From Azolla caroliniana (lineage: Eukaryota; Plantae; Polypodiophyta): a stretch of DNA of 64,000 nt. The notes below the pieces were generated by a model. The model saw nothing but the letters and a program-made list of their open reading frames with translations, was not told where the DNA came from and did not search any database. Location of the stretch: assembly GCA_043228905.1 (NCBI GenBank), contig JBHGNT010000015.1:18104001-18168000 (forward strand). The letters run 5' to 3'. Positions 933-63,064 of this stretch are shown one piece after another (position 1 is the stretch's first letter; the number at the start of each line of letters is the position of its first letter). The translations under genes and the position numbers were made by a program.

Positions 933-1033
933 AGAAATTTAGGAAAGAAAGATGAAGATCAAAGGAGAAGAAGGCATTCATTGTATGAGAGGAGCAGCTT
1001 TCTCCAGCTTTCTCCAGAATAAAGAGAGGCTAG

Positions 1034-1107
1034 ATGGATATAGCTCAATTGGTAAGGTTGCTCAATGGAGACCAGGCAGGATCATGGGTTCAAGCCCTGC
1101 ATTCCAC
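1034..1107 (+). pseudogene. Degenerate tRNA-like sequence (A box/B box), SINE head or LTR-borne cassette
   Basis: TAGCTCAATTGG at 1041 and GGTTCAAGCCC at 1087 at tRNA-like spacing; acceptor and anticodon stems poor; T-arm region resembles the one at 61061-61080. Confidence 0.55.
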
Positions 1108-4100
1108 AATGGCATCTAGTGAAATAAGATATCTCATTAGATAACTATCTAATCAAGAGGTGAGAAAATTGGGGTTTTAACCCAAGATGTGTTAACAACT
1201 TATTGCTTGGTTAATTAAGCTAATTATGATAATAAATAAATAGAGAGAGAGAGAGAGAGAGTGTGTGTGTGTGCGCGCGCGCTTTTGTTGTTTGGACAAA
1301 TGGCTGCAAGGAAGCCCCACCAGGAAGAGCGAGAAGCAGGAAGTGTTGTCGCATGTTAACCATAGATGTAGTTGAGAGGAGAGTAGGTGTGTCTCGTCCG
1401 ACCGCGTCTATTTTGTTGTCCGCCCGCCAAAAAGGAAAGGGCGTGTTTCATTTGTGGAGAAAGTAAAGAGGTTATACCAACTTGTTGTGCGTTCTTATGA
1501 TTATTGTTGCGCCTATTCACACAGAAAAACAGAATGATGAAGTTGTTCTCCCGAGTCCCAATTTCGATTCATTCGATAGTATGGTGGCATTGGCGTCCAC
1601 GCCATCTTTATTTTCTCGAGAGCTTGGGTATGGTGTTAACCTTTTTTTATCCTTTTCGCAGAGTTTCTTGAACATGTGCACTTGTACACACTTTTCGGCC
1701 CCCTCCTTAGAAGAGAAACGAGAATTCATCCACATAGCAAAAACCGTGCACATGAGAAGGTAAAGAAACGCCCCTCTCATTTCAATACTATTTGTTTAAA
1801 TGTGTCGTATGGTATCAATAATATGTTTCTTGTATTTCTATCAAGGTGAAAGAAAGAAAGAAAGAAATTTGGCATAAATGAACGACGTGACATTAGAAAG
1901 GTAAGTCATTGAAAGCGTTACGAAGGAACTCAAATGGGAAAAAATGGCTTTTGTAGTGAAAAAGTAATTACCATGTGATCTTGCAACGGAAATAATCGCG
2001 GAGGTGTCACCCTTGGAGAAAGAAAAACAGTCCATTCCATTCACTTGTCAATGTTCGACGAACTCACTGTTGTGGATAATACAAAAATAAATAGTGCCCT
2101 CCAGTGTTTATTGAAGTACTCTTGAAAGGTTATGGAGCATATCAAGCTACACATACCCTTGTTGGACAAAGGAAGATATTAATGAGCTCCTTTAAATAAG
2201 AAGTTTACATGCATTGATAAGACAATCACAAATGATTGGTTATCAGTTCTTATGAGTGCGTGACGATGTTAGAGTATCGAGATTCTAAGGTTCAATAGTA
2301 TAAAATAGTGTTGCGGTCACTAATGGTGAAGCTTTTGGTTTTCAATACTATAATAATAGGCTCAAGTCTCAAGCATCAGGTTTGTTGTTTTGCCAATTAT
2401 AAAAATTCATTCTAATAGTAGTTTAAGAACATGCACGCTAACGGTTTGCTAACGTATTACTAGGAAAAATTCTTTACAAGTGTACTTGAGATAATGTGCC
2501 GCAGCCCGCTCCTTAAAAAAGGTGACTTTTACAATATTGGCATTGATATTGAAGGAGTGTAAAGGATACCAATGCCCTTTGGAAAAGGCCCTACTAATAA
2601 AGTGACTATGAGCTTAGGCAACTTGCAAGTTGGCAATAGAAGGGAGATTTGGGAAAGCTACATGGCGCTGGACATACAACTCGTTGGGTGAAAATAAACA
2701 AGGGACGATAGTTAGGGCATTGGAATGAAGCTTTAGCGAATAGACCATAGTGGCAACAACCACATTCGACGAGAGAGTGTTGTGCATAGAGCTTTATACC
2801 AAAGTATCTTGTAGAGGAGTACGGAGCACATTTAGTATTATTGTCATTTTATGGGATGCAAAACACTAGGGTGCGGCAATGAGAGAGCTTCGAGGGAAAG
2901 GTTTGGGAGAAGGGACATGGTCATGACATGGACACAATTCATTAGTTGCGAGATCGTGGGGGACAATGACAAGGGATTCCAAGGGCAATAAAACATTTGA
3001 CCAAAATATTACCATCCATCAAAGGGTGTCCACTATCTATCTACACAAGATTAAAAAATTTCATGATTAATCAATACATAGTCATAATCGATTGATTAAT
3101 GGTAAAGGTGAGTACCGTGTGGAAGAGGTTGTGCCAAATCGATTATTTGGTTAATAACCAATCATTTGGATTGCTCATATAAGAAAGTATTAATTAGACA
3201 ATCATGGCACACCATTAAACACATAATTTGTTGAAGAAAAAGAAAAGACAAGAACAAATCAGTAACCGGTTGGTGACCATGCGCGGTGAAGGTATTAAAT
3301 CACTTGGCAGATAAGGATTTAATGATAATTTTACACAACCTGAGATCTTGCGAATCCTAGTAAATACAACGTCATTCTTAAAAATTCCCCTTAATTAAAT
3401 TATGTTCCACGTGAAAGTGATTGGTGTTGGTGTGGTTTAAGAAAGTAAAGTTTATTCGTTTTTTTTTCCAAACAAGCACGTATGTAACTTATAGGGTTGT
3501 GCAAGTCCATGAGCACATGGAACTCTCATTTAATTAGCTTGTGATGTCTTTATTTCAGCCCTTGTGCTACTTCGATAAGAAATATCATCAATACCCAACA
3601 CTTTACAGGGTATCATCAATTACACCCCATGATCTTTTTCGGAATACAATGATATTTTTCTCGAGTCCTTAACAAACAAGAAAAAGTGAAGGTAAAGTAT
3701 GAATGTAGATAATGAGGATTTCTTTTAATCAAGGAAACCTAATTTCATTATCACACAACTTAATTAGAAGAAAGAAAAATAATCACGGTCAAACTAATTA
3801 ACTACGATGCCAATGGTGAGAGGTATTTATGCTATCATCCCTCGCTAATCTTGGTACTTGATTCTAGTCATATGCATTTTATTCTAGTACATAGACCACT
3901 TCATCTTATTCATCATCACCACTCTTTCGATTGTGGTTGCTTTTAGACAAACATCTTGGCTTTTCTTCACTTTAGACACCTCTCCATCTTGGATCGACCA
4001 ATGTTGGAGATCTTTCAAAGGTAGAAGTTTCAACCCAAGTAAGCTTAGAAAGTTATTGCCCGACTAGCAATATTATCTAGTACCTTAAATAGTTTATTAA

Positions 4101-12078: not shown

Positions 12079-15000
12079 AGAATCAAGCTCAACATAGTGC
12101 AATGTGTGAACACACCTTTTGAGAATCCATGATTACTCAAAGGTCAAGAGTCACACCACTACTCTCTACACATTAACTATGTGTCATAGAATCATATTCT
12201 ATGACACATAACTAATGAGTTACATATTGCCCATGACTATGAGTCTTCACATTCCCCAAGAGAGAGAGTGGTTGTTGTAAAGTTAATGAAGAGAGAGGGT
12301 GACTCTATATAAAGCACCCTCCTCATACTTCATACTAAGTTGGTTGTGACTCCTTATTATGCTACATTTTGTAAATCTTATTCTACTTGTGAAATATACA
12401 CCTTCTTGAGTATTCCTTTTTCTATCTATCTTGTGTTCTCTCATCTCTCCTCTAATTCCTCTCACACATACACATAGCACACATCTCTTCTGCTACACAA
12501 GAATCATACTTGATTCTTTACATGGAATCAGAGCGATTTGGTAGCTCAATCTAGCCCACTCGCCTCTTCGTGATCGTGTGTTGTGCTCTACGCTGACGTT
12601 CAAGAAGAACCGACTCATCGCTATCGTAGTACCACTACATAGCTCGTGTTCGAGAGAGAAGGAAAAGAAGAAAGGAAGCTTAATCGACAATGAATACTCA
12701 AATGGGGAGCGCTCTCCCTAGCGAGAAGTTGGATCACAACAACTTTGCATCTTGGGAGTACAAGATGCACCAATACCTTGTCGGCCAAGGCTATTGGAGT
12801 TACATCAAGGGAGCACAAGAATACCGACCTGACCCGAAAGATGCCGACTATGCAACTTCGGAGCAAGCGCCAAGCCGAGTGATGTATTGCTTGGCGACAT
12901 GTGTTCACGACCACATGCTCGGCTACATTCGAGAAGCCGAGACGCCGAAGGAAGCGTGGGAGAATCTACGAAAGATTTTCGCCGCCAACATGACCGCGAG
13001 AAAGCTTCAACTTCGCCAAGAGTTGAACGACATCCAACAACGGGATATGTCCATTACAAGCTACACCTTGAAGATCAAGGAGCTTTGTGATGCACTCGGC
13101 TTGATAAGCGTCAATGTGGAGGATGACGAAATGGTGCAAATATGCCTCGGCAGCCTTGCACCACGGTTCGGTGCGATGCGGATCGCCGTACTAGCACGGG
13201 AGAATCCGCCCTCCTTCTTCGATCTTCAATCCATGTTGTTGGTTGAAGAGAATCATGTTCGAACAAGGAGCAACGCCTTGGAAGGCCACATGCTCTACAC
13301 ACATTCGGACGGAGGAAGAGAACGCGGCCTTGCAAGAAGAGGCCAATTCGGCCAAGGACGAGGCGGACGAGGCCCGACTTACGAAAACAACTCTCAATTA
13401 AGGCAACAAGATGGAGGCCATCGAGGAATTTTAGGAAGAAGGGGGAGCCACCATTCTGGTCCAAGCCGACAAAACTCAGTCGAATGCGGATATTGTGGAA
13501 AAATCGGTCATCGCGAAAAGAATTTTGTAAGAAGATACGTGAGTCGGCTTCCACTAGCCGACAACTCACCAATTACACCGCCGACTCCGAGTACGACGAC
13601 TACGGTGGATTATTCGTAATGAGACATAGAGCGAATTCTATGTCGGCCTCTACTTCTACTAGTGCCTCCGGTCCGGAAGATGTATGGTTCGTCGATTCTG
13701 GTGCCTCAAACCATATGACATTGCATCAAGAATGATTCTGAGAACTTCGAGAGCCGGAACGACCCGGCTATGTCGAAACCGGAGACGACACTACGCATCC
13801 GATTCGGCACATCGGCAATGTTCCGTTCGGAGAAGAAGGTAAGCAAACTTACATTAAAAATGTCTTGCATGTACCAACTATGACGAAGAATTTGGTCTCC
13901 GTCGGCCAAATTGTAGAGCAAGGAATGCAAGTTCGATTTAATCAAGGCGGTTGCTTCATCGAAAAAGAGGGCCGACTCATCGCTCACGGACGAAGAGAGG
14001 GCCGAATGTTCATTCTCGACTCGCACGAGATGAAATCGGCCATGTTCGCAAAGGGCATGAAAGACGATTCCGACATAGAGTTATGGCACAAGCGGATTGG
14101 CCATATCAACCTCCAAAAGCTCAAGGCAATGCATTCGAAAGGAGTCGTCATCGGGCTCCCGACATTCACGGAGAAAGAGATTGAAGGCGTGTGTGCCACT
14201 TGCCAATTCGGCAAGCAACATCGGCACCCATTTCCGAAGGAGCGGAACGTGAGCAAAGGCATACTCGACGCAATTCATTCTGATGTATGGGGTCCGGCTT
14301 AGACGGCGACATTCGGCGGATGCCGATACTACGTGACCTTCATCGACGACTTCTCTAGGCACACTTGGATCTACCCGATGCGGCAAAAGAGCGAAGTGTT
14401 CGGACACTTCCAAAACTTCAAGAATGAAGTCGAGAAAGCCACAGACCGACATGTATGATGTCTTCGGTCAGATGGAGGCAAGGAATATTTCTCGGATGAG
14501 TTTACGGCGTATCTACGGAAAGAAAGAATTCGGCGAGAGTTTTCGTGTCGACATACGCCACAACAAAACGGAGTGGCCGAACGAAAGAATCAACACATCC
14601 TCGAAGTAGCACGGGCCATGATGAACGAAAAGCACGTGCCGAATTCCTCATGAATCGGTGTACAACATCCAGTGTGCATGACCTCACACCGCACGAGAAG
14701 TTTTTCAGAAAGAAGCTGGACCTATCGCATGTTCGGATATTCGGCTCCATTGCGTACGTGCACATCCCCGACAAGAAGCGTCAAAAGCTTGACCTGAAAT
14801 AAGAGAAATGTATCCTCGTAAGATACTGATTGGAGCAAAAGGGGTACAAGTGCTACAATCCCTCAACTCGAAAATCTCGAGTAAGTCAAGACGTCGTTTT
14901 CGATGAGTCCGCATCCTGGTACACACTAGAGACAACTTCGACTCCGATTTCGCTCGACCTAGAATACGCCGAAATAGAGATAGAAGCCGGAGATCGCCTT

Positions 15001-27092: not shown

Positions 27093-27902
27093 CTTTCGGC
27101 TCCGGATCGTTGCGTGAGTCGGGTGGGAACCACCGAGGTCTTGGACTAGGAGAAAGAAGTTCGTGAGATAGAGATTAATTATGAGTAAATAGCAAAGAGA
27201 AAGATAAGAAACTCGTGAATCACACGAGTATACTATATTAATTGGTTCTTAGGGTGTTAAGAGAGAAGTAGATGTATAAATCGTGAATCCCACGAATAAT
27301 TTTTGTATTGATTAATACTTAATCCAAATAATCAACAACCCTTTATATATTTCTCTCCTCCTTATATAAGGAAGGAAGAGCTAAGCATGGCTTCATGCTT
27401 TTTTTTTTACAAAAAGTGTTCATGTCCACTAAATGTGCATGTGATGCTTTTTTTTATTTCCTAACGCTAGATGTGCATGAGTTATTTTTAGTGTCTCGTG
27501 TTTTTTCTTTTTCATATATTAAAAAAATACACGATTTACCTTTTAATAAAGGTATGCATAAATAAAGGTCTTATACGTATTAAATCTATATTTAAAACAC
27601 TTAAGATAAGTTAATGTAATGGTAAGGTTGGGGTTTGTCAACGTGGAGGTGCAGGGTTCGAATCACGCCTTGCGCAGTAGTGAGTATTTCCTTTTTTTTT
27701 TACATTTATGTCTCTTTATCCGGCTCTTCCTTGCCGGTATGCCGTTTTCTTCCTTGCCGGTATGCCGTTTTCCTCCTTGCCGGTATGCCGTTTTCCTCCT
27801 TTCCGGTATGCCGTTTTCTTCCGGTTCTCACCGAGCACTCCATTCTCTATCCGGAGGGACAAAAATATAATTTCCACATAGTGTGCAACCTACACTACGA
27901 CA
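27093..27902 (-). mobile_element. Solo LTR of the G family inserted in C integrase
   Basis: 27093-27157 is the reverse complement of G U5; ends CACTACGACA followed by ACGT; left terminus and TSD damaged; internal ~23-bp repeats 27720-27825. Confidence 0.88.
27605..27701 (+). promoter_or_regulatory. tRNA-like A box/B box cassette with oligo-T, antisense in LTR U3
   Basis: TAATGTAATGGT 27612, GGTTCGAATC 27655, T10 at 27692-27701. Confidence 0.6.
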
Positions 27903-46995: not shown

Positions 46996-48476
46996 AGACG
47001 GGCCAGTTTTCTCCGTCCCAACTTTCTTGGCGCACACCGGAGGATGCGCGGTTAGGTGGGGGCGGATGTCGTGAAGAAAACCGTCCATAAGCGGAATCGG
47101 CAGACCAAGGCGTGGGAACCGGTTCCTCACGCGCGCACGCTCCAAGTCGAACATAGAAGCGAGTTAGGAGGATATTCGGCAGGAACGGGCCCTAACACGA
47201 GTGGAGACAAAGACCGCGCGAACAGTCTTTTCGGTCGCGCGCGCGAGCTAAGGGACGGCACGAGTCGGCGACGTAACTACGCGTATGCGTGAAGAACGGA
47301 GCGGATCCCTGTTCGAAAGGGACAGGGGATAAAGCTGACATGACGGCCTGCTCGTCGAGATATATAAGGAACAGGAAAGAGCTGTAAAAAGGGATATATC
47401 GCGCGGAGAGGACGAAGTGCTGTCGGACCGTTTCTGGACGCTTCTCTCTCTCTGTTTCCTTCCTTCTTGAGCTCCATAGATTTCTGTGCAGGGTTCCGAG
47501 GAGGCTCGCGCTGTTTCGAGGAACGCCCGAGTGCTTCCGGCAGCACCTCCAACCTGCTAACCCCCTTGCCCTGTTTTGTGCGTCGAAGCGAGCAGGCATC
47601 GGCATCTGTTCGCCGGCCTGTTCGGTTGTAACCAACCTGTGCCCCATCGAGGGTTGTAGTCGTGCTAGCCATTTTTCTTAATATACATATTTAGTCATTC
47701 GCATCTGTCTGTGCCGGTGTCTGTTCGCGTTCTCCGTGCTGAAGGGCCGTGTCCCTGTGTATCCCCGGTCCTGCGTAGCCGGTTCTCCCTCTTTCTCCTC
47801 CCTCGCTTGCTCTTTGGTTCGAGGCCCCCGCGGTCCCGCCTCGTTTCCACACGCACTTGCGTAATATCTCGATAACGTCTTCCGGACAGGAGGCACTAGT
47901 AGAAGTAGAGGCCGGCATAGAATTCACTCTATGTCTCATTACGAATAATCCACCGTAGTCGTCATACTCGGAGTCGGCGGCGTAATTGGTGAGTTGTCGG
48001 CTAGTGGAAACCAACTCGTGTATCTTCTTACAACATTCTTCTTCGTGGTGACCGATTTTTCCGCAATATCTGCATTCGACCGAGTTTTGTTGGCTCGGAC
48101 TGGAATGGTGGCTCCCCCTTCTTTCAAAGGTTCCTCGATGGCCTCCATCTTGTTGCCATAATTGAGAGTTGTTTTCGTAAGTCGGGCCTCGTCCTCCTCG
48201 TCCTTGGCCGAATCGGCCTCTTCTTGCACGACCGCGTCCTCTTCCTCCGTCTGAATGTGTGTAGAGCATGTGGCCTTCCGAGGCGTTGCTCCTTGTTCGA
48301 ACATGATTCTCTTTGACCAACAACATGGATTGAAGATCGAAGGAGGGTGGATTCTCCCGTGCTAGTACGGCGGTCCGCATTGCGCCGAACCGTTGTCGTA
48401 GTGTATTTTGTACACTACGTGAAAAACGTATATAGTATTAGATTCAATAAAAAATGAAGAAATAGAAGAAAATAGC

Positions 48477-48563
48477 AAAATAAATGGAACATGCATAGGG
48501 CAAGATTCGAACCTTGCACCTCCATGTTAATAATGTAATGTCTTACCATTACACTAGCATTTC
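48477..48563 (-). promoter_or_regulatory. tRNA-like A box/B box cassette in G 5' LTR
   Basis: Minus strand TAGTGTAATGGTAAGACAT...GCAAGGTTCGAATCTTGC; D-like and T-like stems; T4 then T6 downstream. Confidence 0.65.
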
Positions 48564-49186
48564 ATTAGTGTTAAAGCATAGATGTCCCACATAGAAAGGT
48601 AAATTCACGCTAGGATAAACATTAGAAAAACGCATAACAAAAGAAAAAGCTACACATACACATCTAGCGTGCATGATAAAAAACGCACAAGTTAGAAAAA
48701 AGCATGATCACTTTAGATAAATCATATAGTCTATCTATAGGAAAAGCATGGGGTCTATAGTTAGAGAAAAAGCATGGATTACTAAGACTTCCTCATCACT
48801 ACATAAGGATGGGAAGCACAATGTAATTATGTGTGAAATATTTGGAAATTGGATATATTTCCGAAAACACCAACCGATTAATATAATCGTGGGATTCACG
48901 AAAATAATATAATCTATACTTGTGGGATTCACAAGTTTCTTATATCTTTCTTTCAATCTAAATACATATTCTTATCTAAATATTGATTAATCGAATACAA
49001 TACACTCGTGGGATTCACGAAATTTCTATCTCTCTTTCTAATAATCTATTTATTACTAGCCTCATCTCATATTCTTCTTTCTCCTAGTCCAAAACCTCGG
49101 CGGTTCCCACCCGACTCACGCAACGATCCGGAGCCGAAAGGCACGACACAGTTAGTGAACCCGACGTGAAGGCGGGTGGCAAGGAG

Positions 49187-51217
49187 ATGGAGAATCAACA
49201 AGAGGCGATGAACATGATGATGATAATGTTTGAGCGGATGCAACAAGAACAACGTGTGATGTCGGAGATGAAGGCGGCAGTAGAGCGGCTTCTGCGACGA
49301 AACGGGGAATTCAACGGTAAGGGTGTGTCACGCTACCTACGTGAATATAAGGCGGAGATGATGCAATATCGGATACCGGAAGGATTGCAAGTGATATCCT
49401 TTAGTCGGGTGGCCTCGGACGAACTACAAGAGAGAATCCACAAGATACAACAACAAAACTCGACATGGGAGTCCTTTGAAGAAGCTTTACGGGAGGCATA
49501 TGACTATGAGAGATGGACGGGACGAGATCGACGAGAATTCGACGAATGGGTGGCGTCGGAGAAGACTCACCGAAGTGCAACGCAAGCGTTCCTAGAGTTC
49601 GAGCATCGTTTTGCTCGACTCTCGGAGCGGGAACGAAGATTGGTGGGAGAAGATAAAGTCTTAATGTTCGTAAGATCGATCGATCGGAAAGAAAGGATGG
49701 ACATTGGGATCGAACTCGAAGATGATGACGGTGCGAATGGCCTTACCGAGGATTGGGCTAAAGTCGAAAGGGTATGCCGAAGACATGATGAAAGGAAGCT
49801 GAGAATCTCGTCAACAACGACATGGCCCATGAAGGATGGTCGATTGAGGAAAAACGATGAAGCCAATATGAAGGCCGAAATACAACATGATGGTACCACG
49901 GGAGAAAGAGTGGAACAAGACACCCACTCGTCTTGTGAAAGAACGATGGTGAAGGATAAGGCCGATAATTCAAGTGTAGAAGGAAATTTCGGGATACAAG
50001 TGCCCGAGACATCGGGTCAAAAAGGGGTAAGCATAATAGATGTTTGCATAATTGATGCAGATAAAGAGTGTGAAGCGGATGTGATTAAGGAGGTAGCCAC
50101 AAAAGACGAAATCGAATCGGAGGTGGCTATGGACGAATCAATGGCGGATTGCCATATCGAGACTTCCCCACCACTGATTCCAGAGACTCCGGCGGTTGCG
50201 ATCGAAAGGCAACGTGAGACCGAAGAGACGGAAGGTGGCGGAGAGAAAACGAATGTCGAAGCCGACGAATACGATGAAGAGATAGCCGAGAAGAATGCTA
50301 AGGGTGAAACTACGAAAGAAGGTAATACCGAGGATTCATGCCAACAATATCTAGAGACTTCGGCGGTTGTGTCCGAGAACCAACGTGAGACCGGAGAGAC
50401 GGGAGATGGCGGCGAGGAAGGTAAAGTCGGATGTCGGTTCGGATGGAAAATGATCCATCCGAAATTCCAATCTAAAAGAAAGTGCGACAATGCGGAGGTC
50501 GGGTCTACGACGGGAGAAGCGCGTAATACAGAGCACGCTCTACGGCGAATAAAGAAACGCGTGTTATGGCGAATAAAGAAGCACGCGCTACGGCGAGAAA
50601 AGAAGCATGCATTACAACCACACGAGGACCGAACAACGAGCACATATCGGAGGACCTACGTGGCGAACAACGGAAAGAAGTGCCGAAAGTCGAACCGGAC
50701 AAGGCAGGTGAAAACGAAGAAAAGAAAGCAAATCCGGACGAAAAGAAAAGAAAAGAAACCGACCCGAAAGAGCACTGAATCGGTAAAAACCGATCAACCG
50801 AGTCCGGATCGACCGAATACAAATCGGAAAGGAAGCCGAACTAAACGAAAGACGATCCGACGAGACCGAATCGGAAGTAAGCTAATCCGACTAAGCCGAA
50901 AATCCGAAAAGAAGTCGAGATTGATGAAGAAAAGAAAGAGGGCAAGAAAAGATACTACCGCGGATGACAAGGACCAAGCGGGCCATGCAAAAAGCGAACG
51001 AAGACTATGGTGGATCGGATGTCGACAATGGTTCGGGTGGAAAGAATGGATGTGCTCCAAATGGAGAGACAAAGTCAACATAACAAGAGAAGTCGAGGGT
51101 ACTACGAGCCGGCAACGAAACCAATCGGGTAGAGACCGGACGGAGGAGACTAACAAACACCAACAACTTCGGCACATACCGGAGGATGTGCGGGTTTGGA
51201 GGGGGCGAGTGTCGTAG
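49187..51217 (+). CDS. Gag-like protein with acidic middle and K/R-rich C-terminus (~676 aa)
   Basis: Uninterrupted ORF; N-terminus aligns with A Gag (FNGKGVSRYL vs FDGKDATKYL; VLMFVRSID vs VLLFVKSVD; GLTEDW vs GLTIDW). Confidence 0.85.
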   Translation: MENQQEAMNMMMIMFERMQQEQRVMSEMKAAVERLLRRNGEFNGKGVSRYLREYKAEMMQYRIPEGLQVISFSRVASDELQERIHKIQQQNSTWESFEEALREAYDYERWTGRDRREFDEWVASEKTHRSATQAFLEFEHRFARLSERERRLVGEDKVLMFVRSIDRKERMDIGIELEDDDGANGLTEDWAKVERVCRRHDERKLRISSTTTWPMKDGRLRKNDEANMKAEIQHDGTTGERVEQDTHSSCERTMVKDKADNSSVEGNFGIQVPETSGQKGVSIIDVCIIDADKECEADVIKEVATKDEIESEVAMDESMADCHIETSPPLIPETPAVAIERQRETEETEGGGEKTNVEADEYDEEIAEKNAKGETTKEGNTEDSCQQYLETSAVVSENQRETGETGDGGEEGKVGCRFGWKMIHPKFQSKRKCDNAEVGSTTGEARNTEHALRRIKKRVLWRIKKHALRREKKHALQPHEDRTTSTYRRTYVANNGKKCRKSNRTRQVKTKKRKQIRTKRKEKKPTRKSTESVKTDQPSPDRPNTNRKGSRTKRKTIRRDRIGSKLIRLSRKSEKKSRLMKKRKRARKDTTADDKDQAGHAKSERRLWWIGCRQWFGWKEWMCSKWRDKVNITREVEGTTSRQRNQSGRDRTEETNKHQQLRHIPEDVRVWRGRVS

Positions 51218-51292
51218 TGTATTTTGTACACTACGTGAAAAACGTATATAGTATTAGATTCAATAAAAAATGAAGAAATAGAAGAAAATAGC

Positions 51293-51379
51293 AAAATAAA
51301 TGGAACATGCATAGGGCAAGATTCGAACCTTGCACCTCCATGTTAATAATGTAATGTCTTACCATTACACTAGCATTTC
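51293..51379 (-). promoter_or_regulatory. tRNA-like cassette in G 3' LTR
   Basis: Identical copy of 48477-48563. Confidence 0.65.
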
Positions 51380-53011
51380 ATTAGTGTTAAAGCATAGATG
51401 TCCCACATAGAAAGGTAAATTCACGCTAGGATAAACATTAGAAAAACGCATAACAAAAGAAAAAGCTACACATACACATCTAGCGTGCATGATAAAAAAC
51501 GCACAAGTTAGAAAAAAGCATGATCACTTTAGATAAATCATATAGTCTATCTATAGGAAAAGCATGGGGTCTATAGTTAGAGAAAAAGCATGGATTACTA
51601 AGACTTCCTCATCACTACATAAGGATGGGAAGCACAATGTAATTATGTGTGAAATATTTGGAAATTGGATATATTTCCGAAAACACCAACCGATTAATAT
51701 AATCGTGGGATTCATGAAAATAATATAATCTATACTTGTGGGATTCACAAGTTTCTTATATCTTTCTTTCAATCTAAATACATATTCTTATCTAAATATT
51801 GATTAATCGAATACAATACACTCGTGGGATTCACGAAATTTCTATCTCTCTTTCTAATAATCTATTTATTACTAGCCTCATCTCATATTCTTCTTTCTCC
51901 TAGTCCAAAACCTCGGCGGTTCCCACCCGACTCACGCAACGATCCGGAGCCGAAAGGCACGACACCGTGGTGCAAGGCTCCTGAGGCATATTTACACCAT
52001 TTCGTCATCCTCCACATTGACGCTTATCAAGCCCAGGGCATCACAAAGCTCCTTGGCCTTCAAGGTGTAGCTTGTAATGGACATATCCCGTTGTTAGATG
52101 TCGTTCAACTCTTGGCAGAGTTGAAGCTTTCTCGCGGTCGTGTTGGCGGCGAAAATCTTTCGAAGATTCTCCCACGCTTCCTTCGGCGTCTTGGCTTCTA
52201 GAATGTAGCCGAGCATGTGGTCGTGAACACATGTCGCCAAGCAATACATCACTCGGCTTGGCGCTTGCTCCCAAGTTGCATAGTCAGTGTCTTTCGGGTC
52301 AGGTCGGTTTGGTGCATCTTGTACTCCCAAGATGCAAAGTTGTTGTGATCCAACTTCTCGCTAGGGAGAGCGCTCCCCATTTGAGTATTCATTGTCGATT
52401 AAGCTTCCTTTCTTCTTTTCCTTCTCTCTCGAACACGAGCTATGTAGTGGTACTACGATAGCGATGAGCCGGTTCTTCTTGAACGTTGGCGTAGAGCACA
52501 ACACACAATCACGAAGAGGCGAGTGGGCTAGATCGAGCTACTAAATCGCTCTGATACCATGTAAAGAATCGATGGTTATTCTTGTGTAGTGGAAGAGATG
52601 TGTGCTATATGTATGTGTGAGAGGAATTAGAGGAGAGATGAGAGAACACAAGATAAATAGAAAAAGGAATACTCAAGAAGAAGGTGTATATTTCATAAGT
52701 AGAATAAGAATTACAAAATGTAGCATAATAAGGAGTCACAACCGACTTAGTATGAAGTATGAGGAGGGTGCTTTATTTTGAGTCACCCTCTCTCTTCATT
52801 AACTTTACAACAACCACTCTCTCTCTTGGGGAATGTGAAGACTCATAGTCATGGGGAATATGTAACTCATTAGTTATGTGTCATAGAATATGATTCTATG
52901 ACACATAGTTAATGTGTAGAGAGTAGTGGTGTGACTCTTGACCTTTGAGTAATCATAGATTCTTAAAAGGTGTATTCACACATTGTGCTATGTTGAGCTT
53001 GATTCTCAACA

Positions 53012-53246
53012 GCTATGAACAACAAACAACGTAAACAAAAAGTAGAGAGGGAGATTGAGGCTTACACAGATACGAGCTTTAATGGAAATCTTCTTATTTT
53101 CTGCACAGAGCGTTTTTTCTCAGAATTTACACTCGTCATGATCTATTACAATGTTAGATATTCACTTATGTACTAAGCCTTAACTTGTTAATTTTTTCAC
53201 ACTAGGACGGATACAAGGTGGAAGGAGTCGGCCTTTTATGCCAACA
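53012..53246 (-). repeat. Remnant of element E 5' LTR, interrupted by D2
   Basis: Aligns to 11251-11487 and ends GCCAACA followed by TSD GGAAG. Confidence 0.9.
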
Positions 53247-53800
53247 GGAAGTATGTATGTCAAAATGAAGGACAAGAAACAATTCGTCATCGACATTAGC
53301 CAAACACAAGAGTGTTTGGAAGCCGAGTTTAAATGAAGGAATTTGGGATTTTACTCTACTTCCTCGGAATGGAGGTTTGGCAAACCTTAGTCGGCGTTTT
53401 CATGTCACAATAAAAGTATGCAACAAAGATCTTGAAGACCTTTGGGATGATCGCTACAAGTCAAAGTCAACTAGGATGGAGTCAAATGGTAAGCTATCCC
53501 AAGAAGAAACTTCACCAATGGTTGACATAACGAAGCAACTTCTGGGAAGGTTAATTTTCCTGTGTGGCACTAGGATGGATATTTTCTTTGTCGTCAGTGT
53601 GGTAAACTGATTTAAGAAGCTAAAGGAGGTGTGTTATGTGTATTGAAGTAAATAGTGAGTACTTTAAATTATGGAATCTTGTACAAGCGTACAATTGACG
53701 AACTTAGTGGGTATTATGATTCAAATGGTCGAATATAGTGATTCTAAAAATCACGTTTTGAATATTTCTTTTCAATAAGTTTTGGAGCTTATGCATGGAA
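53247..53800 (+). pseudogene. Ancient Copia I, right part (RT C-terminus and start of RNase H)
   Basis: MKEFG..YFLGMEV, GRLIFLCGTRMDIFFVVSVV, LSGYYDS traces. Confidence 0.75.
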
Positions 53801-55644: not shown

Positions 55645-58600
55645 TGTTGAGCGGCAAGCTCAACCAGATCCAGATTGGCTGAATAAGCTTGAGCCGGATC
55701 GGCATCCGGAAGGATGAACCAGATTGGGGAGCCGGTTAGCCGGATCCAGCAGTAACCAGAAGCCTAGTAGTAGCCTAAACTACTAGGTAGTTAATGTCTC
55801 GTAGTTAGTGTTAGACGCTCGTGTGATCATTGAAGTACATTGTACCTCTGTCAGTCCTCTTAGGACTTATATAAATAGTGCTGTTGAGCACGTTGTATGT
55901 ACAAAGTTTTAGAGTTATTTTGAATAGAGTTTTATGTTATGCTCTTTCTTTGTCTCTCTTGTGTACCCTTTGTGTGATAATCTCTCTCTCTGTTGCTACT
56001 TGGCTGGGCTGGTTTGTCTGACGCTTCCGCACATAATCTTTTACATGGTATAAGAGCTCGAGAGTTGAGAACCTCTGCAGCCGACATCAACATCTGGAGA
56101 CGAACCCAAAGACCCAGTAAGAACAGAAAGAGAAGTGATGGACAGAGGAATGGCTAACTCGCTCCCGGTGGAGAAGCTCGACAGATCCAACTACGCATCT
56201 TGGTCATACAAGATGCACCAATACCTGCTTGGGTATGGTTATTGGAGCTATGTCGACGGAGCTAACGACACAACACCTGATGCGGCACACAAGGACTTCC
56301 CAGTGTGGGAACAAGCGACAAGTAGAGTGCTTTGCATCTAGTGTTGGAGACCAACTGCTGAGCCATGTCCTAGATGCCAAGATGCCAAAAGAAGCTTGGG
56401 GAAACCTGAAGAAGGGTGTCACGGCAAGCGCTACGGCCCGAAAGCTGCAACTATGACAGGAGTTGACCAATGTCCGACAGAAGGACATGTCGGTAGCCGA
56501 TTACAGGGCCCGAATCAAAGAGATCTGTGACTCACTTGCCTCTATCGACGTCACTATAGAGGAAGATGAGATGGTGCAGATCTGTCTTGGGGGCCTAACG
56601 TCTAAGTTCAGAGCGTTCCGAACGGCGGTCTGTACGAGGGAGAATACCCCGTCCTTTTTCGACTTACAGTCAATGCTCCTTGTAGAGGAGAACCACGCTA
56701 GTGCGTCAACAAGTGCACCCACCGACAATCGAATGCTGTACACGAAGGCGGATCGGCTCGCAATGGTAGTTGCCGGCAAGAGCAGGACCAAAGGCACAGA
56801 GAACGTGCCGTTAGCAGTTCCGGACCCTCCACAAGCAGGGGGAGTCAAGGCGGTGCCGGAGGCCGGAGGCCGGCAAGCAAAGGCCGACACGAAATGCTGG
56901 TACTGTGGTAAAAAGGGCCACAGAGAAAACGAGTGCTGGAAGAAGTGCGCTGATTCGGACAAATGCGGATCCGGCAAGGCCGACAGAGAGAACCGACAAT
57001 ACTCGCACTATGCAGAAGGATCGGGAGGATCCAAAACCGGAAAAGCCGGTAAAGGGCCAACCTTGGTGATGAAACACGAGGCTAACTCGATGAAAAAGAC
57101 CACTTCCAAACCGAAGGAAGTGTGGTATGTTGATTCCGGTGTGTCGAATCACATGACGAGCCACAAAGAGTGGTTCTCCTTCTTGGAGAAACCGGAACAA
57201 TAGAGAGGAACCGGAACAATAGAGAGGAACCTTCAAAGCTTGGTTGAACGGGAAACAAAGAGGAAGATCAAGTACCTGCAGTCGGATGGCGAAAAAGAAT
57301 ATTTTTCCGGCCAATTCAACAATTATCTGCAGCAAAAAGGAATTCGAAGAGAGTTCAACTGCAGATACACACCGGAGCAAAACGGTGTGGCCGAGAGGAA
57401 GAACTGGTCGATTGTCGACGCGGTAAGGGCAATGCTAGAGGAGAAGAGCATGCCCCATTTCTACTGGGCCAAGGTGGTCAGGACGACCGTCTACATCCAA
57501 AACCGAATCGGTGACAAGGTGGCCGCGCATGAGCTGTATTTCGGGCGCAAGCCGAATATGAGTCACCTTCGGATATTCGGTAGTATTGCATATGTGCATG
57601 TGCCGGATGAGAAGCAGAGGAAGTTGGATGCAAAGTCGGAGAAATGCATCCTGGTCGGTTACTCGCATGAGCAAAAGGGGTATAAGTGTTATAATCCCCA
57701 GACGAAGTAGGTCCGAGTTAGCCGGGATGTTGAGTTTGATGAGACGGCATCATGGTATGCCTTACCGGCTCCGACTTCCGACCCCAACCCGATACCGGAG
57801 GATGAGGCTAGTGAGCCTGAACCGGTCCAGTCAGAAGACGAAGGATTCGAGACTCTAGATGTGAGTCCAGAATCGTTTCGGTTGAGTGGACCGAATGAGC
57901 GGCTGAGTCGGGATGACCAGTCAGATGAGGAACCGACGAGTAGTGGAGACTTTGCCGTGCTCTCCCTACGCAAGGAACCGAGGAGATGGTTCACGTGCAA
58001 AGAGAAGGGGAAGAAAAAGATGCCGCAATATGCAACCGGCAACGTTGAGACAGATCGGAGCGAATCCGACTTCGGAAAGGATGAAGGCAGATCTTCGGGA
58101 ACAAAGCCCAAACCGGCCAAGAAGGGCCTCAAACCGGGTAACGATAAGATACGCCGGTCTTCCCGCCAGAAGAACCCCGTGAAGCGGTATGGGTACAATG
58201 AGTACATGGTGCATCATTATGCGTACATGACTAAGGTGGCGGAAGTGCGTGAGCTGGAGAGCTACGCAAAAGCAGCAAAGGACGCAAATTGGCGTGCCGC
58301 TATGGAGGAAGAAATGCGGGCACTTGATGCCAACGACACATGGAACCTAGTTGACCCTCCCCGACACTGTAAACCGATCGGATGTAAGTGGGTGTACAAG
58401 GTAAAGTACAATGCCGACGGTTTGGTTAACCGGTACAAGGCTTGGTTAGTGGCGAAGGGATACGCGCAGACCCATAGAATCGACTACGATGAGACCTTCG
58501 CTCCGGTAGCAAAGATGACGATGGTTCGTGTGGTGCTGGCGATTGCTGCGGCAACGGGGTGGTATCTTCAATAGATGGACGTGAAGAATGCATTTCTTCA

Positions 58601-60814
58601 AGGCGATCTTGAAGAAGAGGTTTTTATGACCCAACCCCTTGGTTTCCAGTCGGAGATGAACAAGTCGGAGGTATGCCGGCTGAAGAAGGCCTGAAGCAAG
58701 CCTCCTGAGCTTGGAATGTGAAGATCATGCACCGATTGCGTAAGATGGGGTTTGAGGCCTCCAAGTCCGACTCTTCATTGTTCATCCGACAAGGTTCGGA
58801 TGGTCCGGTTTGCATTTTGCTGTACGTTGATGATCTAGTCATCACCGGACCCAGACTCGATGAAGTCAGCCGAGTCAAGTCCCAGTTGTCGGATGCATTT
58901 GAGATGAGGGACCTGGGGGACCTTCACTATTTCCTTGGGATTGAGGTGATCCGAACCCCTGACGGCATACTGCTCTCACAACGACACTATGTGTTGAATA
59001 TGCTGTACAAGTTCGGCATGACGGAATGTCGACCAATCTCCACACCCCTGGACCGGAACCAGAAGCTTTGACTCGACTCTAGACTGGCCTACGATGAGAA
59101 GCGGTTCCGACAAATCGTCGAAAGCCTTATATATTTAACAATCACCCGACCCGACATCAGTTATCCGTCGGCGTGATCAACCAATATATGTAGAAGCCGA
59201 TCGTGGAGCACCTTCTTTGTGCGCATCGAATTTTGCGATATGTGAGTGGCACAAAGGACCGGGGACTATTATATTGGCATGGTATAATCGAAGAGCTAGT
59301 CAGCTAGACTGATGCCGACTAGGCTGACGATGCATCGGATCGCCGATCCTCCTCTGGCTATATGTTTTCCCTTGGTAGCGCGGCTGTTGCGTGGAGCAGC
59401 AAAAACCAGCCAACAGTTGCCCTTTAAAGCATTGAGGCTGAATACCGGGGCGCTTTGGCAACTACTGCAAGACCTACGGATCGAGGTGCCGACCCCGATC
59501 TTGATCTACTGCGACAACATAAGCAACATGCAACTCGTCAAGAACCCCGTATTCCATGCTCGCACAAAGCACATAGAAGTGCACTACCACTTCGTGTGTG
59601 AGCGTGTCCTGAGCGGTGAAGTCGAACTTCGGTATGTTCATACGGATCGGCAAGTTGCCGACATCTTCACCAAACCACTCAGATCAGACAAGTTGCATCA
59701 CTTCACTGAAATGCTTGGTGTTCAGCATCTCGATGTGCCACACTTGAGGGGGAGAACGAGCAAAGACACTGGAACAGGCAAAGGCAAAGAAATTGTCAAT
59801 TGTGCCGGTGAGGGAAGAACCGACAAAGGGGGAGACAAGAAGAAGGAAGGAGACGAGTCGACAAAGGAAGTTGACACATCCGAACATGTCAGAACAAGCG
59901 GCAATGGCGATAGAGTGAAGAAGGACAAAGCCGACCGAAAGAAGATGGCCAAGACCCGGACATGTTCTGATGTGGTGAAGGGCCTGGAACCAGAAGACGA
60001 ATCTGGAGTGACCGATTCGGACAAGAGCTGGAACGAATCGAAGATAGCCAATTCGGTTCAACAGACGGATTCAGAAGAACCGGATCAATTCAAGGCCAAG
60101 AGGATGAGAAGACAGCGAAAGTCGACGCCAACATGAAGGAATCGGCGAATCGGCAAGTGCCGAAGTCACAACAGCGAGGGAGCTGAATTGGGCCTGTTGA
60201 GCAGACAAGCCGACCGAGGAGGTCCAGGTGCGCAGAATCAGAAGGGTCGCGGCAACCGGGACCGCACTGGACGAGGAACGTGAGCGAGGCGGAGTGACGC
60301 CAAAAGGAGCCAGGTTGAAGAACCGGCTCCCATGGAGACTAGCACTACGATCCGACCTCAAGTTGAGCTTGAGGGGGAGTGTTGAGCAACAAGCTCGACC
60401 GGATCCGGATCGGCTGAATAAGCCTGAGCCGGATCAGCATCCGAAAGGATGAGCCAGATCGGTGAGCCGGTGAGCAAGCAACCCAGTGAGCTGGGGAGCC
60501 GGTTAGCCGGATCCAACAGTAACCGGAAGCCTAGTAGCAGCCTAGACTACTAGGTAGTTAATGTCTCGTAGTTAGTGTCAGACGCTCGTGTGATCATTGA
60601 AGTACATAGTACCTTTGTCAGTCCTCTTAGGACTTATATAAATAGTGATGTTGAGCACGTTGTATGTACATAGTTTTAGAGTTATTTTGAATAGAGTTTT
60701 ATGTTATGCTCTTTCTTTGTCTCTCTTGTGTACCCTCTGTGCGATAATCTCTCTCTCTCTGTTGCTACCCAGCTAGGCCGGTTTGTTTGACGCTTCCGCA
60801 CATAATCTTTTACA
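55645..60814 (+). mobile_element. Copia element F (related to D family), internally deleted
   Basis: LTRs 55645-56045 and 60380-60814, TSD ATTAT, PBS TGGTATAAGAGC 56046-56057, PPT 60369-60379. Confidence 0.95.
56138..60136 (+). pseudogene. Element F polyprotein with stops, frameshifts and a PR-IN deletion
   Basis: KLDRSNYASW, CWYCGKKGHRENEC, WYVDSG, PEQNGVAE, LYVDDL, TKHIEVHYHF. Confidence 0.93.
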
Positions 60815-61015
60815 ATTATGTTAAGGGAATATACAATAGTAGCTAGGAGGCTTAAGACTGGCGTTGAACCGATTTGGTTCGAAATAATGCCTTGTGCCTC
60901 CTTTTATAGTGTTGTCAGGAGTACTCCTGAAATTTCTAGAATGTTCTAGAGAAATATGGAATATACTTCAATTTTCTATAGTAAAACCTAAATGAAAATA
61001 ATATCCTTCGTATTA

Positions 61016-61087
61016 CAACATATAGTTTAATGGTCAAAAGCTTGAACCATGTAACATAAGGTCATGGGTTCGAGTCTTGCTATATCA
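61016..61087 (+). promoter_or_regulatory. tRNA-like A box/B box cassette at the U3 edge of the H LTR (antisense)
   Basis: TAGTTTAATGGT 61023 and GGTTCGAGTC 61067, 44 nt apart. Confidence 0.55.
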
Positions 61088-63064
61088 TGACACTATCCTG
61101 CCTTTAAAACGATGGAAGTATTCAAGAAGAGCACGAGCATTGGTCACATTCTCTATTGGTTCCCAAATACGCTTGATGGGACTATATCCTAGCCAATCGA
61201 CTAAATTGTAGAGCTTGTTGCGAACAATCTGGGAATTGAGGATGGCGGCAACCTCGTACTCAGGTCCATCGTCAAGCTCGATCGGGGGTGGAGGTTGTTT
61301 AATACGACCTGTGATGGTGTTGTCTTGATAGGGTTCGAGGAGAGAACTATGAAACACCAAATGTATCCAAAGTTGTGGAGGTAGATCGAGTCGAAAAGTG
61401 ACATCATTAATTTTTCCGATAATATGGAAAGGACCTAATCGCCGGTAATCTGGAACTTCTCGCATGGGCGAGTAGTCTTGATGTGTCGTCATAGTAGCCA
61501 CACCCGATCTCCAATGTCAAAACTGGATGGAAGTTGATGACGATCCACGCAAACCTTGTGTGTTTGTTGAGCTTGTTGTAGATGAGTAGATAAATCCGCT
61601 TGTATCTTACGTAGCCGCTCCAAACGATCCTCTGCAGAAGGATTTGTAGGTAACTCTAGGGTTTCAAATACACACAACCGGGGGTGACAACCCTTATAAG
61701 CATAAAATGGTGTCACCTTTGTCGATGAGTGGACAGAGTTATTATACGCAAATTCGGCGAAGTGGAGAATATCCGCCGAGTCATCTTGATGATAGCTTAA
61801 AAAGCACCGAAGATACTGCTCCAACGTTTGATTTGTTTTTTCTGCTTGGCCGTCTGTTTGCGGGTGGTAGCCGAAGGAGAGGTTACAAGTGACCTTAAGC
61901 ATTTTAAAGAGGTGCTTCCAGACCTTCGAGACGAATTGGGGTCCACGGTCGCTGATGATACTATCGGTTCTTGGCATTTTTGCTCTCCAACATGTATCAC
62001 AAGTCCGAACAAAATCTTCGACAAATTGTCGCATATGGGGCTACCAGAAGGATCCTTGTACTAAATCTAGTGTTTTAGTACTACCAAAATTCCCAAGTGT
62101 GTATGTGCCATGACAGTTTTGGACTTCTTGAAGGCGACAAGTACCATTGGGAACATACAAGAGTTTCTTAAAGAATAGCAATCCATCATGACATTCGAAT
62201 TGTCAATAGTCCATACCTGGTTGTTGTTCTATGAACAAGATGCTCGAGAGGGATCAATTTGTGTTAGAATGGCTTGAGCGAAAACATCTGTCTTCAAGTC
62301 CTCACGTATGGTATCGATAACGTGGGAATCCAAGGGCATACCGAAGACCTGCGTTGCTTGCAGTCGTGCCGGTCCTAAGATTACTTGCTTTTGGTTATCG
62401 AAAGCTGGCTCGCCGGGACGCGGTGCTAGATACGAACGCCGTGATAATGCATCTGCCTTCCCTTGTTACTTCCCCAGACGATATGTGATTTTGAAGTCGA
62501 AACGAGTGAGGAATTGGGCCCACTGATCTTGACGTCGATTTAACACACGAGCATTCTGAAAGTAGGCAAGGTTTTTGTGATCATTGAATACGATGACTTG
62601 ATGAGAAGACCCCTCTAGAAAATGCCTCCATTGAGTAAAAGAGTCCACTATTGCTAATAGCTCTTTATCGTGAATTTCATAGTTGATTTCCACGGCATCA
62701 AACTTGTGTGAATGGAATGCCACAGGATGTAGCTTTTCATCATCGCCTTGTTGAGATAGAATGCTACCCAAGGTGAAATTCGACGCGTCTGCTTTAATGA
62801 TGAATGGTTTTTCTGGATCAACATGAGCTAAAATAGGAGCTGATGTAAATGCCTTTTTAAGAATCTCAAAAGCAATGTCCGCTTCTTCAGATCAAACGAA
62901 CGATTTTCCCTTCCTGGTAAGTTGTGTGAGAGGCAGAACAAGCTTTGAGTAATCCTATATGAACTTGCGGTATAAATTGACAAAGCCTAAAAAGCATTGC
63001 ACATCTTGCAATGAACGCGGAGTCTACCACTCTACCATCGTTTTGACCTTAGCTGGATCCATCA

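What the first reader, a model, noticed from the sequence alone, without database searches (positions are those of the whole stretch)
48477..48563. LTRs carrying an antisense tRNA-mimic Pol III cassette
Seen on minus in both G LTRs: TAGTGTAATGGTAAGACAT (A box with D-like stem GTGT/ACAT), GCAAGGTTCGAATCTTGC (B box with T-like stem) 43 nt later, then oligo-T. Acceptor and anticodon arms are lost. Established: A/B boxes recruit TFIIIC/Pol III and tDNAs act as chromatin barriers; Cassandra elements carry 5S-derived Pol III promoters in LTRs. Inference: a tRNA-based analogue, serving as an insulator protecting the LTR promoter inside heterochromatin, or producing a ~90-nt RNA or antisense transcript. 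I do not know of a description of this, but cannot search.
Basis: partly seen in the sequence, partly recalled or inferred. Interest (0 to 1): 0.8.

Follow-up and report, generated by a model that had tools for sequence, protein, structure and literature searches.

The report
Backward tRNA promoters in retrotransposon LTRs
Several families of protein-coding jumping genes in a plant genome, likely a moss, carry a backward-facing remnant of a tRNA gene in their end-repeats, with its two promoter boxes kept while most of the surrounding repeat diverged; it likely recruits RNA polymerase III and would then shield the element's own promoter from silencing, but neither step has been tested.

Summary
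Both LTRs of element G, a 3.6-kb non-autonomous Phygy-type Ty3/gypsy, carry an antisense tRNA-type A box and B box at tRNA spacing, followed by T-runs. It is not a tRNA. The cassette is inherited within the clade: it sits in U3 of two autonomous sister families, of a distant branch (integrase about 60% identical) that shares little else in the LTR, and of 8 of 9 usable metagenome relatives. A similar antisense cassette lies at the LTR tip of an unrelated chromovirus (945 pattern hits). Across subfamilies the A box varies mainly where tRNA A boxes vary, and cytosines on the cassette strand show excess C-to-T change (34/60 sites against 17/69). Against a strict need: two sister families lack it, and elements with a mutated B box still transposed. 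No RNA or chromatin data were available, so the insulator role is untested. The closest known elements, Helenus and Cassandra, are small, non-coding and sense-oriented. Scan notes report tRNA-like units in fungal Gypsy elements of other genomes. Verdict: new variant of a known kind.

The parts
48394..51964 (+). Element G: non-autonomous Phygy-type Ty3/gypsy LTR retrotransposon, inserted in a copia element
   Evidence: TG...CA LTR pair with 1 mismatch and CCGT duplication; the flanks match an uninterrupted copia copy at 13160-13683
48394..49148 (+). 5' LTR of G (755 bp)
   Evidence: 40 other genomic matches at 88-100% identity among 40 scored candidates of 3756
48477..48563 (-). Antisense tRNA-like cassette in U3 of the 5' LTR (the finding)
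48546..48556 (-). A box TAGTGTAATGG
   Evidence: one base from the A box of a host tRNA-Gln gene
48503..48513 (-). B box GGTTCGAATCT
   Evidence: intact in 29 of 30 G LTR loci
48449..48480 (-). Candidate polymerase III terminators: T4 at 48477-48480 and T6 at 48449-48454
   Evidence: function inferred
48800..48808 (+). TATA-like box of the LTR's own promoter (TACATAAGG; TATATAAGG in sister families), about 245 bp from the A box and facing the other way
   Evidence: conserved block in 8 subfamily LTRs; position; function inferred
49153..49170 (+). Primer-binding site for tRNA-Trp (one mismatch in this copy)
   Evidence: complementary to the 3' end of a host tRNA-Trp(CCA) gene; intact in most other copies
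49187..51217 (+). Gag-derived ORF with a low-complexity tail; no RT or integrase
   Evidence: N-terminal 236 aa of the frame 56% identical to the Gag of autonomous family 2; no Pfam hit
51198..51209 (+). Polypurine tract
51210..51964 (+). 3' LTR of G
51293..51379 (-). Second copy of the cassette (A box 51362-51372, B box 51319-51329)
27093..27902 (-). Solo LTR of autonomous family 2, the likely helper lineage of G; last bases missing
   Evidence: full-length 7.3-kb copies with gag-PR and RT-RH-INT frames
27612..27665 (+). Homologous cassette, antisense to the family-2 LTR (A box 27612-27622, B box 27655-27665, T10 27 nt on)
60815..61092 (-). 5' part of the 3' LTR of a chromovirus (Tcn1-type); the LTR is split by a copia element at 55645-60814; purine tract at 61093-61105
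   Evidence: chromodomain in the adjoining frame
61023..61077 (+). tRNA-like cassette antisense to the chromovirus LTR, at its very tip (A box 61023-61033, B box 61067-61077)

Best explanation
The cassette is a tRNA-derived A-box/B-box unit fixed in U3 of a Phygy retrotransposon clade in antisense orientation; it is likely a working type-2 RNA polymerase III promoter, and it would help the element by holding a factor-bound, open patch about 250 bp outside the LTR's own promoter. Shown: sequence, position, orientation, inheritance across families and the conservation pattern. Inferred step 1 (about 0.6): TFIIIC binds the boxes, loads TFIIIB on the AT-rich stretch upstream, and polymerase III makes a 90-120 nt RNA that runs toward the LTR's outer end and stops at the T-runs inside U3. 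Inferred step 2 (about 0.55 given step 1): the benefit comes from the bound DNA, which shields or opens the neighbouring polymerase II promoter among nested, silenced retrotransposons, as tDNA and TFIIIC sites do in yeast and mammals. Copies with intact boxes would then stay transcribable longer and found the next subfamily. The cassette is not needed for one round of transposition.
For: (1) It is present at a homologous place in G, in autonomous families 2 and 5, and in older subfamilies. (2) It is present in family 6, whose integrase is only 59-61% identical to families 2 and 5 and whose LTR aligns with G only over the cassette, G nt 107-158. (3) It is present in 8 of the 9 metagenome LTRs that reach this region, out of 24 loci fetched. 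(4) In 11 subfamily representatives (mean identity 72%) the A box is invariant at T8, A9, A14, T16 and G18 and variable at positions 10, 12, 13 and 15; the B box averages 0.94 column identity, within the top 1.2% of 407 U3 windows. Family 5 has the same A box as host tRNA-Asp genes. (5) C-to-T variants occur at 34 of 60 cytosine sites on the cassette strand against 17 of 69 on the other strand (p=3e-4; CHH only 26/51 against 12/59), with no bias in the rest of U3 (74/221 against 52/180). This is the direction expected if that strand is the exposed non-template strand (own knowledge); raised mutation at active tRNA genes is reported in PMC6130373 (passages). (6) The B-box cytosine mutates recurrently in family 2, yet CG remains the commonest state in all four families counted, which suggests that mutants are purged over time (inference). 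(7) T-runs lie 21-50 nt after the B box in four Phygy families, and the upstream DNA is 64-89% AT against 68-82% at nine host tRNA genes. (8) An unrelated chromovirus has the same antisense arrangement in 30 of 30 loci examined.
Against: There is no direct evidence of binding, transcription or chromatin effect. Families 3 and 4 in this window are recent Phygy elements without the cassette. B-box C-to-T mutants are in both LTRs of 3 of 7 full-length Phygy elements checked, so they transposed; 13 of 38 family-2 LTRs have the B-box CG changed, against 28 of 1121 at other CG sites, which is the opposite of a protected site. The A box as a whole is only in the top 21% of U3 windows. The invariant GGAGGT and the trailer after the B box are not explained by TFIIIC binding. 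The strand-bias test was post hoc, holds in 3 of 4 families, uses homologous sites, and weakens to p=0.095 on rare variants. The chromovirus cassette has no T4 inside its LTR. No barrier element of the animal or yeast type has been reported to act in plants (PMC9540200, passages).
Confidence: 0.38

Rival explanations
1. The RNA is the point: polymerase III makes a short hairpin RNA fully complementary to U3 of the genomic RNA, which tunes the element's own copy number or diverts small-RNA silencing, somewhat like the polymerase III small-RNA cassettes in foamy virus U3.
For: Strong predicted folds in G (z -3.2), a metagenome relative (-2.5) and the chromovirus (-4.6). The B-box hairpin is 92% paired over 18 Phygy sequences with 8 cells changed on both sides (3 of 500 shuffles as high). 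GGAGGT is invariant in 11 representatives. Terminators lie inside U3 in Phygy.
Against: The fold is not shared by family 2 (z +0.55) or family 5 (z +0.03). The covariation involves 3 pairs, all but one cell being transitions, among related sequences, and the structure was taken from G itself. The hairpins are short for a microRNA precursor (own knowledge).
Confidence: 0.2
2. Passive relic: a tRNA-derived SINE head or tRNA pseudogene entered U3 once and has been carried along without function.
For: Two sister families lack it. B-box mutants transposed and are frequent. In young family G the whole U3 is about 99% conserved, so the two G LTRs alone say nothing. Other tRNA-headed repeats exist in this genome.
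Against: It is the only U3 segment shared between G and family 6. A-box variation tracks the free positions of tRNA A boxes. Box spacing stays at 44-45 nt. There is no flanking duplication or tail. A mutation-prone CG would not be expected to survive neutral divergence to 60% integrase identity (inference).
Confidence: 0.2
3. A replication signal: the cassette strand is the minus-strand cDNA, so a tRNA-like hairpin forms in single-stranded DNA near the polypurine tract and guides reverse transcriptase, RNase H or integrase; polymerase III is not involved.
For: The chromovirus cassette abuts the purine tract. Excess C-to-T on this strand and mutations shared by both LTRs also fit damage to single-stranded minus DNA. 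The hot-spot cytosine lies in the predicted hairpin loop.
Against: The B box lies 111-238 nt into the LTR in Phygy families, at no fixed distance from the tract. The A box, its spacing and the T-runs are promoter traits not needed for a hairpin. The fold is not conserved.
Confidence: 0.12
4. Helenus/Cassandra mechanism: the cassette is the promoter of the genomic RNA.
For: tRNA-type boxes in both LTRs of a non-autonomous element.
Against: It points away from the primer-binding site and gag, meets T-runs within 50 nt, occurs in 7-kb autonomous elements, and a separate TATA block is conserved.
Confidence: 0.02

Closest known systems
Helenus / TRIMp3 (Kojima 2024, PMC10886601; parts 1-4 of 6 of the text, passages, and a motif search of the supplement)
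   Same: tRNA-like sequence with conserved A and B boxes in both LTRs, no functional tRNA, polymerase III function inferred and not shown; tandem arrays occur
   Different: Helenus are non-coding TRIMs of 311-1263 bp with the cassette in sense (120 sense against 7 antisense B-box motifs in the supplement), proposed to make the template RNA; the only plant case is in Selaginella. Here the cassette is antisense, in U3, and in 3.6-kb gag-bearing and 7.3-kb autonomous elements. The paper notes that 'not a few' Repbase LTRs hold tRNA-like sequence but followed only those under 1000 bp.
Cassandra TRIM (as described in PMC10886601 and PMC12786077, passages; the original paper was not read)
   Same: polymerase III promoter captured in plant LTRs; tandem arrays with shared LTRs
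   Different: 5S-derived, sense, makes the element's RNA, non-coding
Simian foamy virus U3 polymerase III microRNA cassettes (PMC3993851, passages)
   Same: A/B-box cassettes with T-run terminators inside U3 of a coding retroelement whose genome is made by polymerase II
   Different: animal retrovirus; products are shown microRNAs; no antisense arrangement is mentioned in the text searched
tDNA and ETC barrier insulators of yeast and mammals (PMC12409998, passages)
   Same: A/B or B boxes bound by TFIIIC that stop heterochromatin spreading; this is what the cassette may work like
   Different: fixed host loci with shown occupancy; here mobile, unshown, and in a plant, where no such barrier is reported (PMC9540200, passages)
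Phygy and Tcn1 lineages (PMC6317226, passages and one supplement row; PMC2864245 and PMC7466625, passages)
   Same: these are the carriers: 4-bp NCGN targets and tRNA-Trp priming for Phygy; chromodomain and self-priming for Tcn1
   Different: none of the passages read mentions a tRNA-like or polymerase III sequence in their LTRs

Membership tests
Helenus / TRIMp3 | tRNA-like A and B boxes in both LTRs | tested here: met
Helenus / TRIMp3 | TRIM: short (up to about 1.3 kb) and non-coding | tested here: not met
   G is 3571 bp with a gag-derived ORF; families 2 and 5 encode RT and integrase
Helenus / TRIMp3 | cassette in sense so that polymerase III can make the template RNA | tested here: not met
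   antisense to PBS and gag in all families; Helenus sense
Helenus / TRIMp3 | polymerase III transcription | not testable with these tools
   needs occupancy or 5'-end RNA data
Cassandra | 5S rRNA-derived sequence in the LTR | tested here: not met
   no Rfam 5S hit; boxes are of tRNA type
tRNA gene | cloverleaf with acceptor and anticodon arms | tested here: not met
   ARAGORN 0 genes; Rfam none; relaxed ARAGORN calls are inconsistent between families
Recent SINE insertion | own target-site duplication and tail | tested here: not met
   longest shared word on the two sides is 6 nt
Recent SINE insertion | free-standing copies outside LTRs | tested here: inconclusive
   64 of 70 Phygy and 26 of 30 chromovirus pattern hits run on as LTR for 200 nt or more; candidate free copies proved to be family-6 LTRs; only 100 of 443, all 97 and 100 of 945 hits were listed
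Phygy (carrier) | 4-bp duplication with NCGN preference | tested here: met
   CCGT here; NCGN at nearly all outer flanks of 58 LTR copies; definition
Phygy (carrier) | tRNA-Trp primer-binding site | tested here: met
Phygy (carrier) | no chromodomain; polyprotein fills the internal region | tested here: met
   family 2; at 7.3 kb it is slightly under the published 7.7-10.0 kb range
Phygy (carrier) | RT/RH/INT tree position with reference elements | not tested
   no reference sequences were held; the tree has only local elements
Tcn1 chromovirus (second carrier) | chromodomain at the integrase C-terminus | tested here: met
   PF00385, E 4e-14
Tcn1 chromovirus (second carrier) | self-priming site in place of a tRNA PBS | tested here: inconclusive
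   the sequence after the 5' LTR is complementary to a stretch after the TATA box, judged by eye
tDNA/ETC barrier insulator | TFIIIC occupancy and a block to heterochromatin spreading | not testable with these tools
   no chromatin data

The most novel reading that the evidence does not exclude
Two unrelated Ty3/gypsy lineages of a moss have each kept an outward-facing tRNA-type promoter at the outer end of their LTRs as a portable chromatin barrier. More than a thousand mobile TFIIIC sites would then protect retrotransposon promoters and mark the borders of the interleaved transposon islands and gene regions: a plant tDNA-type insulator spread by transposition.
Probability: 0.2. Interest if true: 0.85.

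Novelty: new variant of a known kind. Interest (0 to 1): 0.6.

Why it matters
Known plant LTRs with polymerase III promoters (Cassandra, Helenus) are small non-coding elements in which the promoter points into the element. Here tRNA-type boxes point outward, in protein-coding elements that have their own TATA block, so they must do something else if they do anything. About 1,500 exact pattern matches (443, 97 and 945) are a lower bound on candidate TFIIIC sites in one genome. The identity of barrier insulators in plants is an open question (PMC9540200). If the host is a moss, targeted box mutations are feasible, and intact, mutant and cassette-free sister LTRs already exist as natural controls.

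Tried and rejected
Expression: no RNA holder listed; the four runs were contigs only, and one guessed-RNA contig over 48511-48597 is not used as evidence. Donor tRNA: no consistent best match among 18 host isotypes (Asp, Arg, Lys and His all appear). Donor SINE: the apparent free-standing copies were family-6 LTRs; the microsatellite-flanked tRNA-headed repeat is only weakly similar. Landing pad for other elements: not supported, 64 of 70 and 26 of 30 copies are intact upstream, and the two breaks at 12-13 nt look like deletions. Protection of the B-box CG from decay: not seen (13/38 in family 2, 14/37 in family 5, 4/15 in the chromovirus against 34/75 at other CG sites). Common origin of the Phygy and chromovirus cassettes: undecided; the middles are unrelated (z -0.6 to 2.3), the 16 nt after the B box are alike (z 4.2, noticed post hoc), and a Phygy profile scores the chromovirus no better than a host tRNA-Gly (8.3 against 7.9 bits). 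One search used a mis-registered structure and is replaced. The tip 'fam6_L270' in the RT tree belongs to another element (opposite strand) and is ignored. One search failed on a script error and was rerun. Conservation inside family G alone is uninformative, and selected for identical cassettes. Earlier-notes look-ups by sequence and by moss terms found nothing; the same-genome notes shown concern a different feature. Repbase could not be searched.

Full report
Observation. The motifs are at the stated place on the minus strand: A box 48556-48546, B box 48513-48503, T4 at 48480-48477 and T6 at 48454-48449, with an identical set in the second LTR. The distance from the A-box start to the B-box core is 44 nt, as in a host tRNA-Gln gene, and such a pair arose in 0.02% of 20,000 simulated LTRs. 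It is not a tRNA: ARAGORN finds none in the window, Rfam finds none in 47500-53500, and the predicted fold is two hairpins.

The carrier. Element G spans 48394-51964, with 755-bp LTRs that differ at one base, a CCGT duplication, a primer-binding site that matches a host tRNA-Trp gene, a purine tract and a gag-derived ORF without RT or integrase. Target sites are almost all NCGN among 58 LTR copies. A 4-bp NCGN duplication and tRNA-Trp priming define the Phygy lineage described from a moss (PMC6317226, passages and one supplement row), so the host is likely a moss; tree placement against reference elements was not tested. The primer site and gag lie on the plus strand, so the cassette is antisense, in U3, about 245 bp outside a conserved TATA block.

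It is inherited, not a one-off. A solo LTR at 27093-27902 belongs to autonomous family 2 (7.3 kb) and keeps both boxes at the same spacing with a different middle. Family 5, also autonomous, has it with the A box of host tRNA-Asp genes. Family 6 has other LTR ends and an integrase 69-73% identical to families 3 and 4 but 59-61% to families 2 and 5; its LTR aligns with G only over the cassette. Families 3 and 4 in this window lack it, so it was either lost there or moved between branches. Of 24 metagenome loci found by gag, 9 have an LTR that reaches this region: 8 hold the cassette and 1 has an internal deletion; one of the 8 is 99% identical in gag to family 2 and is not independent. Contigs of two other coded organisms cover the cassette and run off at its edges, some with a family-2-type middle followed by the A box.

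A second lineage. A scan of the window gave two more A+B pairs. One lies antisense at the tip of the LTR of a chromodomain-bearing element. Its pattern has 945 exact matches and 0 in the reversed control, and 30 of 30 loci examined place the B box 11-18 nt from the LTR start. Whether it shares an origin with the Phygy cassette is undecided. The other pair belongs to a small microsatellite-flanked repeat, not an LTR.

Signs of selection. Inside young family G the whole U3 is about 99% conserved, which says nothing. Across 11 subfamily representatives (mean identity 72%) the B box ranks in the top 1.2% of U3 windows. The A box ranks only in the top 21%, but it is fixed at T8, A9, A14, T16 and G18 and free at 10, 12, 13 and 15; the position names follow tRNA numbering, recalled. 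The GGAGGT before the B box is also invariant, which a pure TFIIIC model does not explain. A hairpin around the B box is 92% paired in 18 sequences with weak covariation, but whole-cassette folding is not significant in families 2 and 5.

A possible footprint of use. In four sets of LTR copies (38, 37, 24 and 15), leaving out the B-box CG and pattern-fixed positions, cytosines on the cassette strand carry T variants at 34 of 60 sites against 17 of 69 on the other strand (p=3e-4). The rest of U3 is symmetric, the effect persists in CHH context, and it holds in 3 of 4 sets. On rare variants alone p is 0.095. The test was post hoc and the sites are homologous between families. It fits transcription from that strand (PMC6130373 reports raised C-to-T and G-to-A at active tRNA genes, passages; the strand direction is my inference), but it also fits damage to single-stranded minus cDNA.

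Results against. The B-box CG is changed in 13 of 38 family-2 LTRs against 28 of 1121 at other CG sites; the C-to-T form needs 6 changes on a weakly resolved tree and is not clustered. It is in both LTRs of 3 of 7 full-length Phygy elements, so such elements transposed. The boxes are therefore not required for one round. Their survival over deep divergence despite this mutability points to slower, lineage-level selection (inference). No landing-pad pattern was found, an idea taken from scan notes e1-10420520 and e1-10420559.

Mechanism. I commit to a type-2 polymerase III promoter whose value to the element lies in the bound DNA next to its polymerase II promoter: about 0.6 for binding and transcription, 0.38 overall. 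The barrier activity of tRNA genes and ETC sites depends on TFIIIC in yeast and mammals (PMC12409998, passages), and no such element is reported to act in plants (PMC9540200, passages). The rivals are an antisense regulatory RNA (0.2), a passive relic (0.2) and a cDNA hairpin signal (0.12). A Helenus-type genomic promoter is excluded by orientation.

Novelty. tRNA-like boxes in LTRs are known from Helenus (PMC10886601; parts 1-4 of 6, passages, supplement motif search), which is small, non-coding and sense-oriented. A 2025 review names Cassandra as the exception to polymerase II transcription among plant LTR elements (PMC12786077, passages). Polymerase III cassettes in U3 are shown for foamy viruses (PMC3993851, passages). 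Ten searches and passages of PMC7466625 and PMC2864245 gave no description of antisense tRNA-like boxes in Phygy or Tcn1 LTRs. The library lacks most subscription papers, Repbase was not searchable, and Kojima remarks that not a few Repbase LTRs contain tRNA-like sequence, so an unpublished annotation is possible. Unchecked scan notes describe tRNA-like units in fungal Gypsy elements of other genomes. Verdict: a real and conserved feature, a new variant of a known kind, function untested, interest 0.6.

Noticed in passing
window 1030-1245; L186-L196: A repeat of about 220 bp, usually between AG microsatellites, with a tRNA-like head and a second, inverted box-like part; 1501 first-look candidates. 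It may be an undescribed SINE- or MITE-like family.
   Followed up: partly
G000:C18:6693625-6711282 and C3:11234032-11242827: Tandem arrays of element G sharing LTRs (7 and 4 LTRs, periods about 2817 and 2895 bp).
   Followed up: partly
window 48886-49019: Two to three copies per LTR of the near-palindrome TCGTGGGATTCACGA after the TATA block, conserved in all 8 subfamily LTRs aligned; a likely cis-element.
   Followed up: no
window 49088-51217; L257: G and a family-6 non-autonomous element both keep the Gag N-terminus plus a charged tail ending in a WWIG..QWF motif, which suggests that the non-autonomous ORF is an old, retained design.
   Followed up: no
window 61030-61082; L246: In the chromovirus cassette the middle is a near-perfect 17-bp inverted copy of the B-box arm, forming a strong hairpin at the LTR tip. 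L227 is an LTR fold-back with two inverted tips.
   Followed up: partly
L206, about 290 nt before the gag match: A more distant Phygy relative has a sense-oriented B-box-like stretch in its LTR without a clear A box.
   Followed up: no
G000:C3:14.64-15.39 Mb, C4:19.41-19.54 Mb, C10:5.14-5.15 Mb, C5:17.99 Mb: Large tandem clusters of tRNA-Asp, tRNA-His and tRNA-Lys genes with many decaying copies.
   Followed up: no
L087 and L102: Two independent breaks 12-13 nt upstream of the A box, near the predicted start site; both look like deletions joined to another Phygy LTR.
   Followed up: partly
window 52868-52917 and 12168-12220: A 50-bp near-perfect palindrome in a copia LTR.
   Followed up: no
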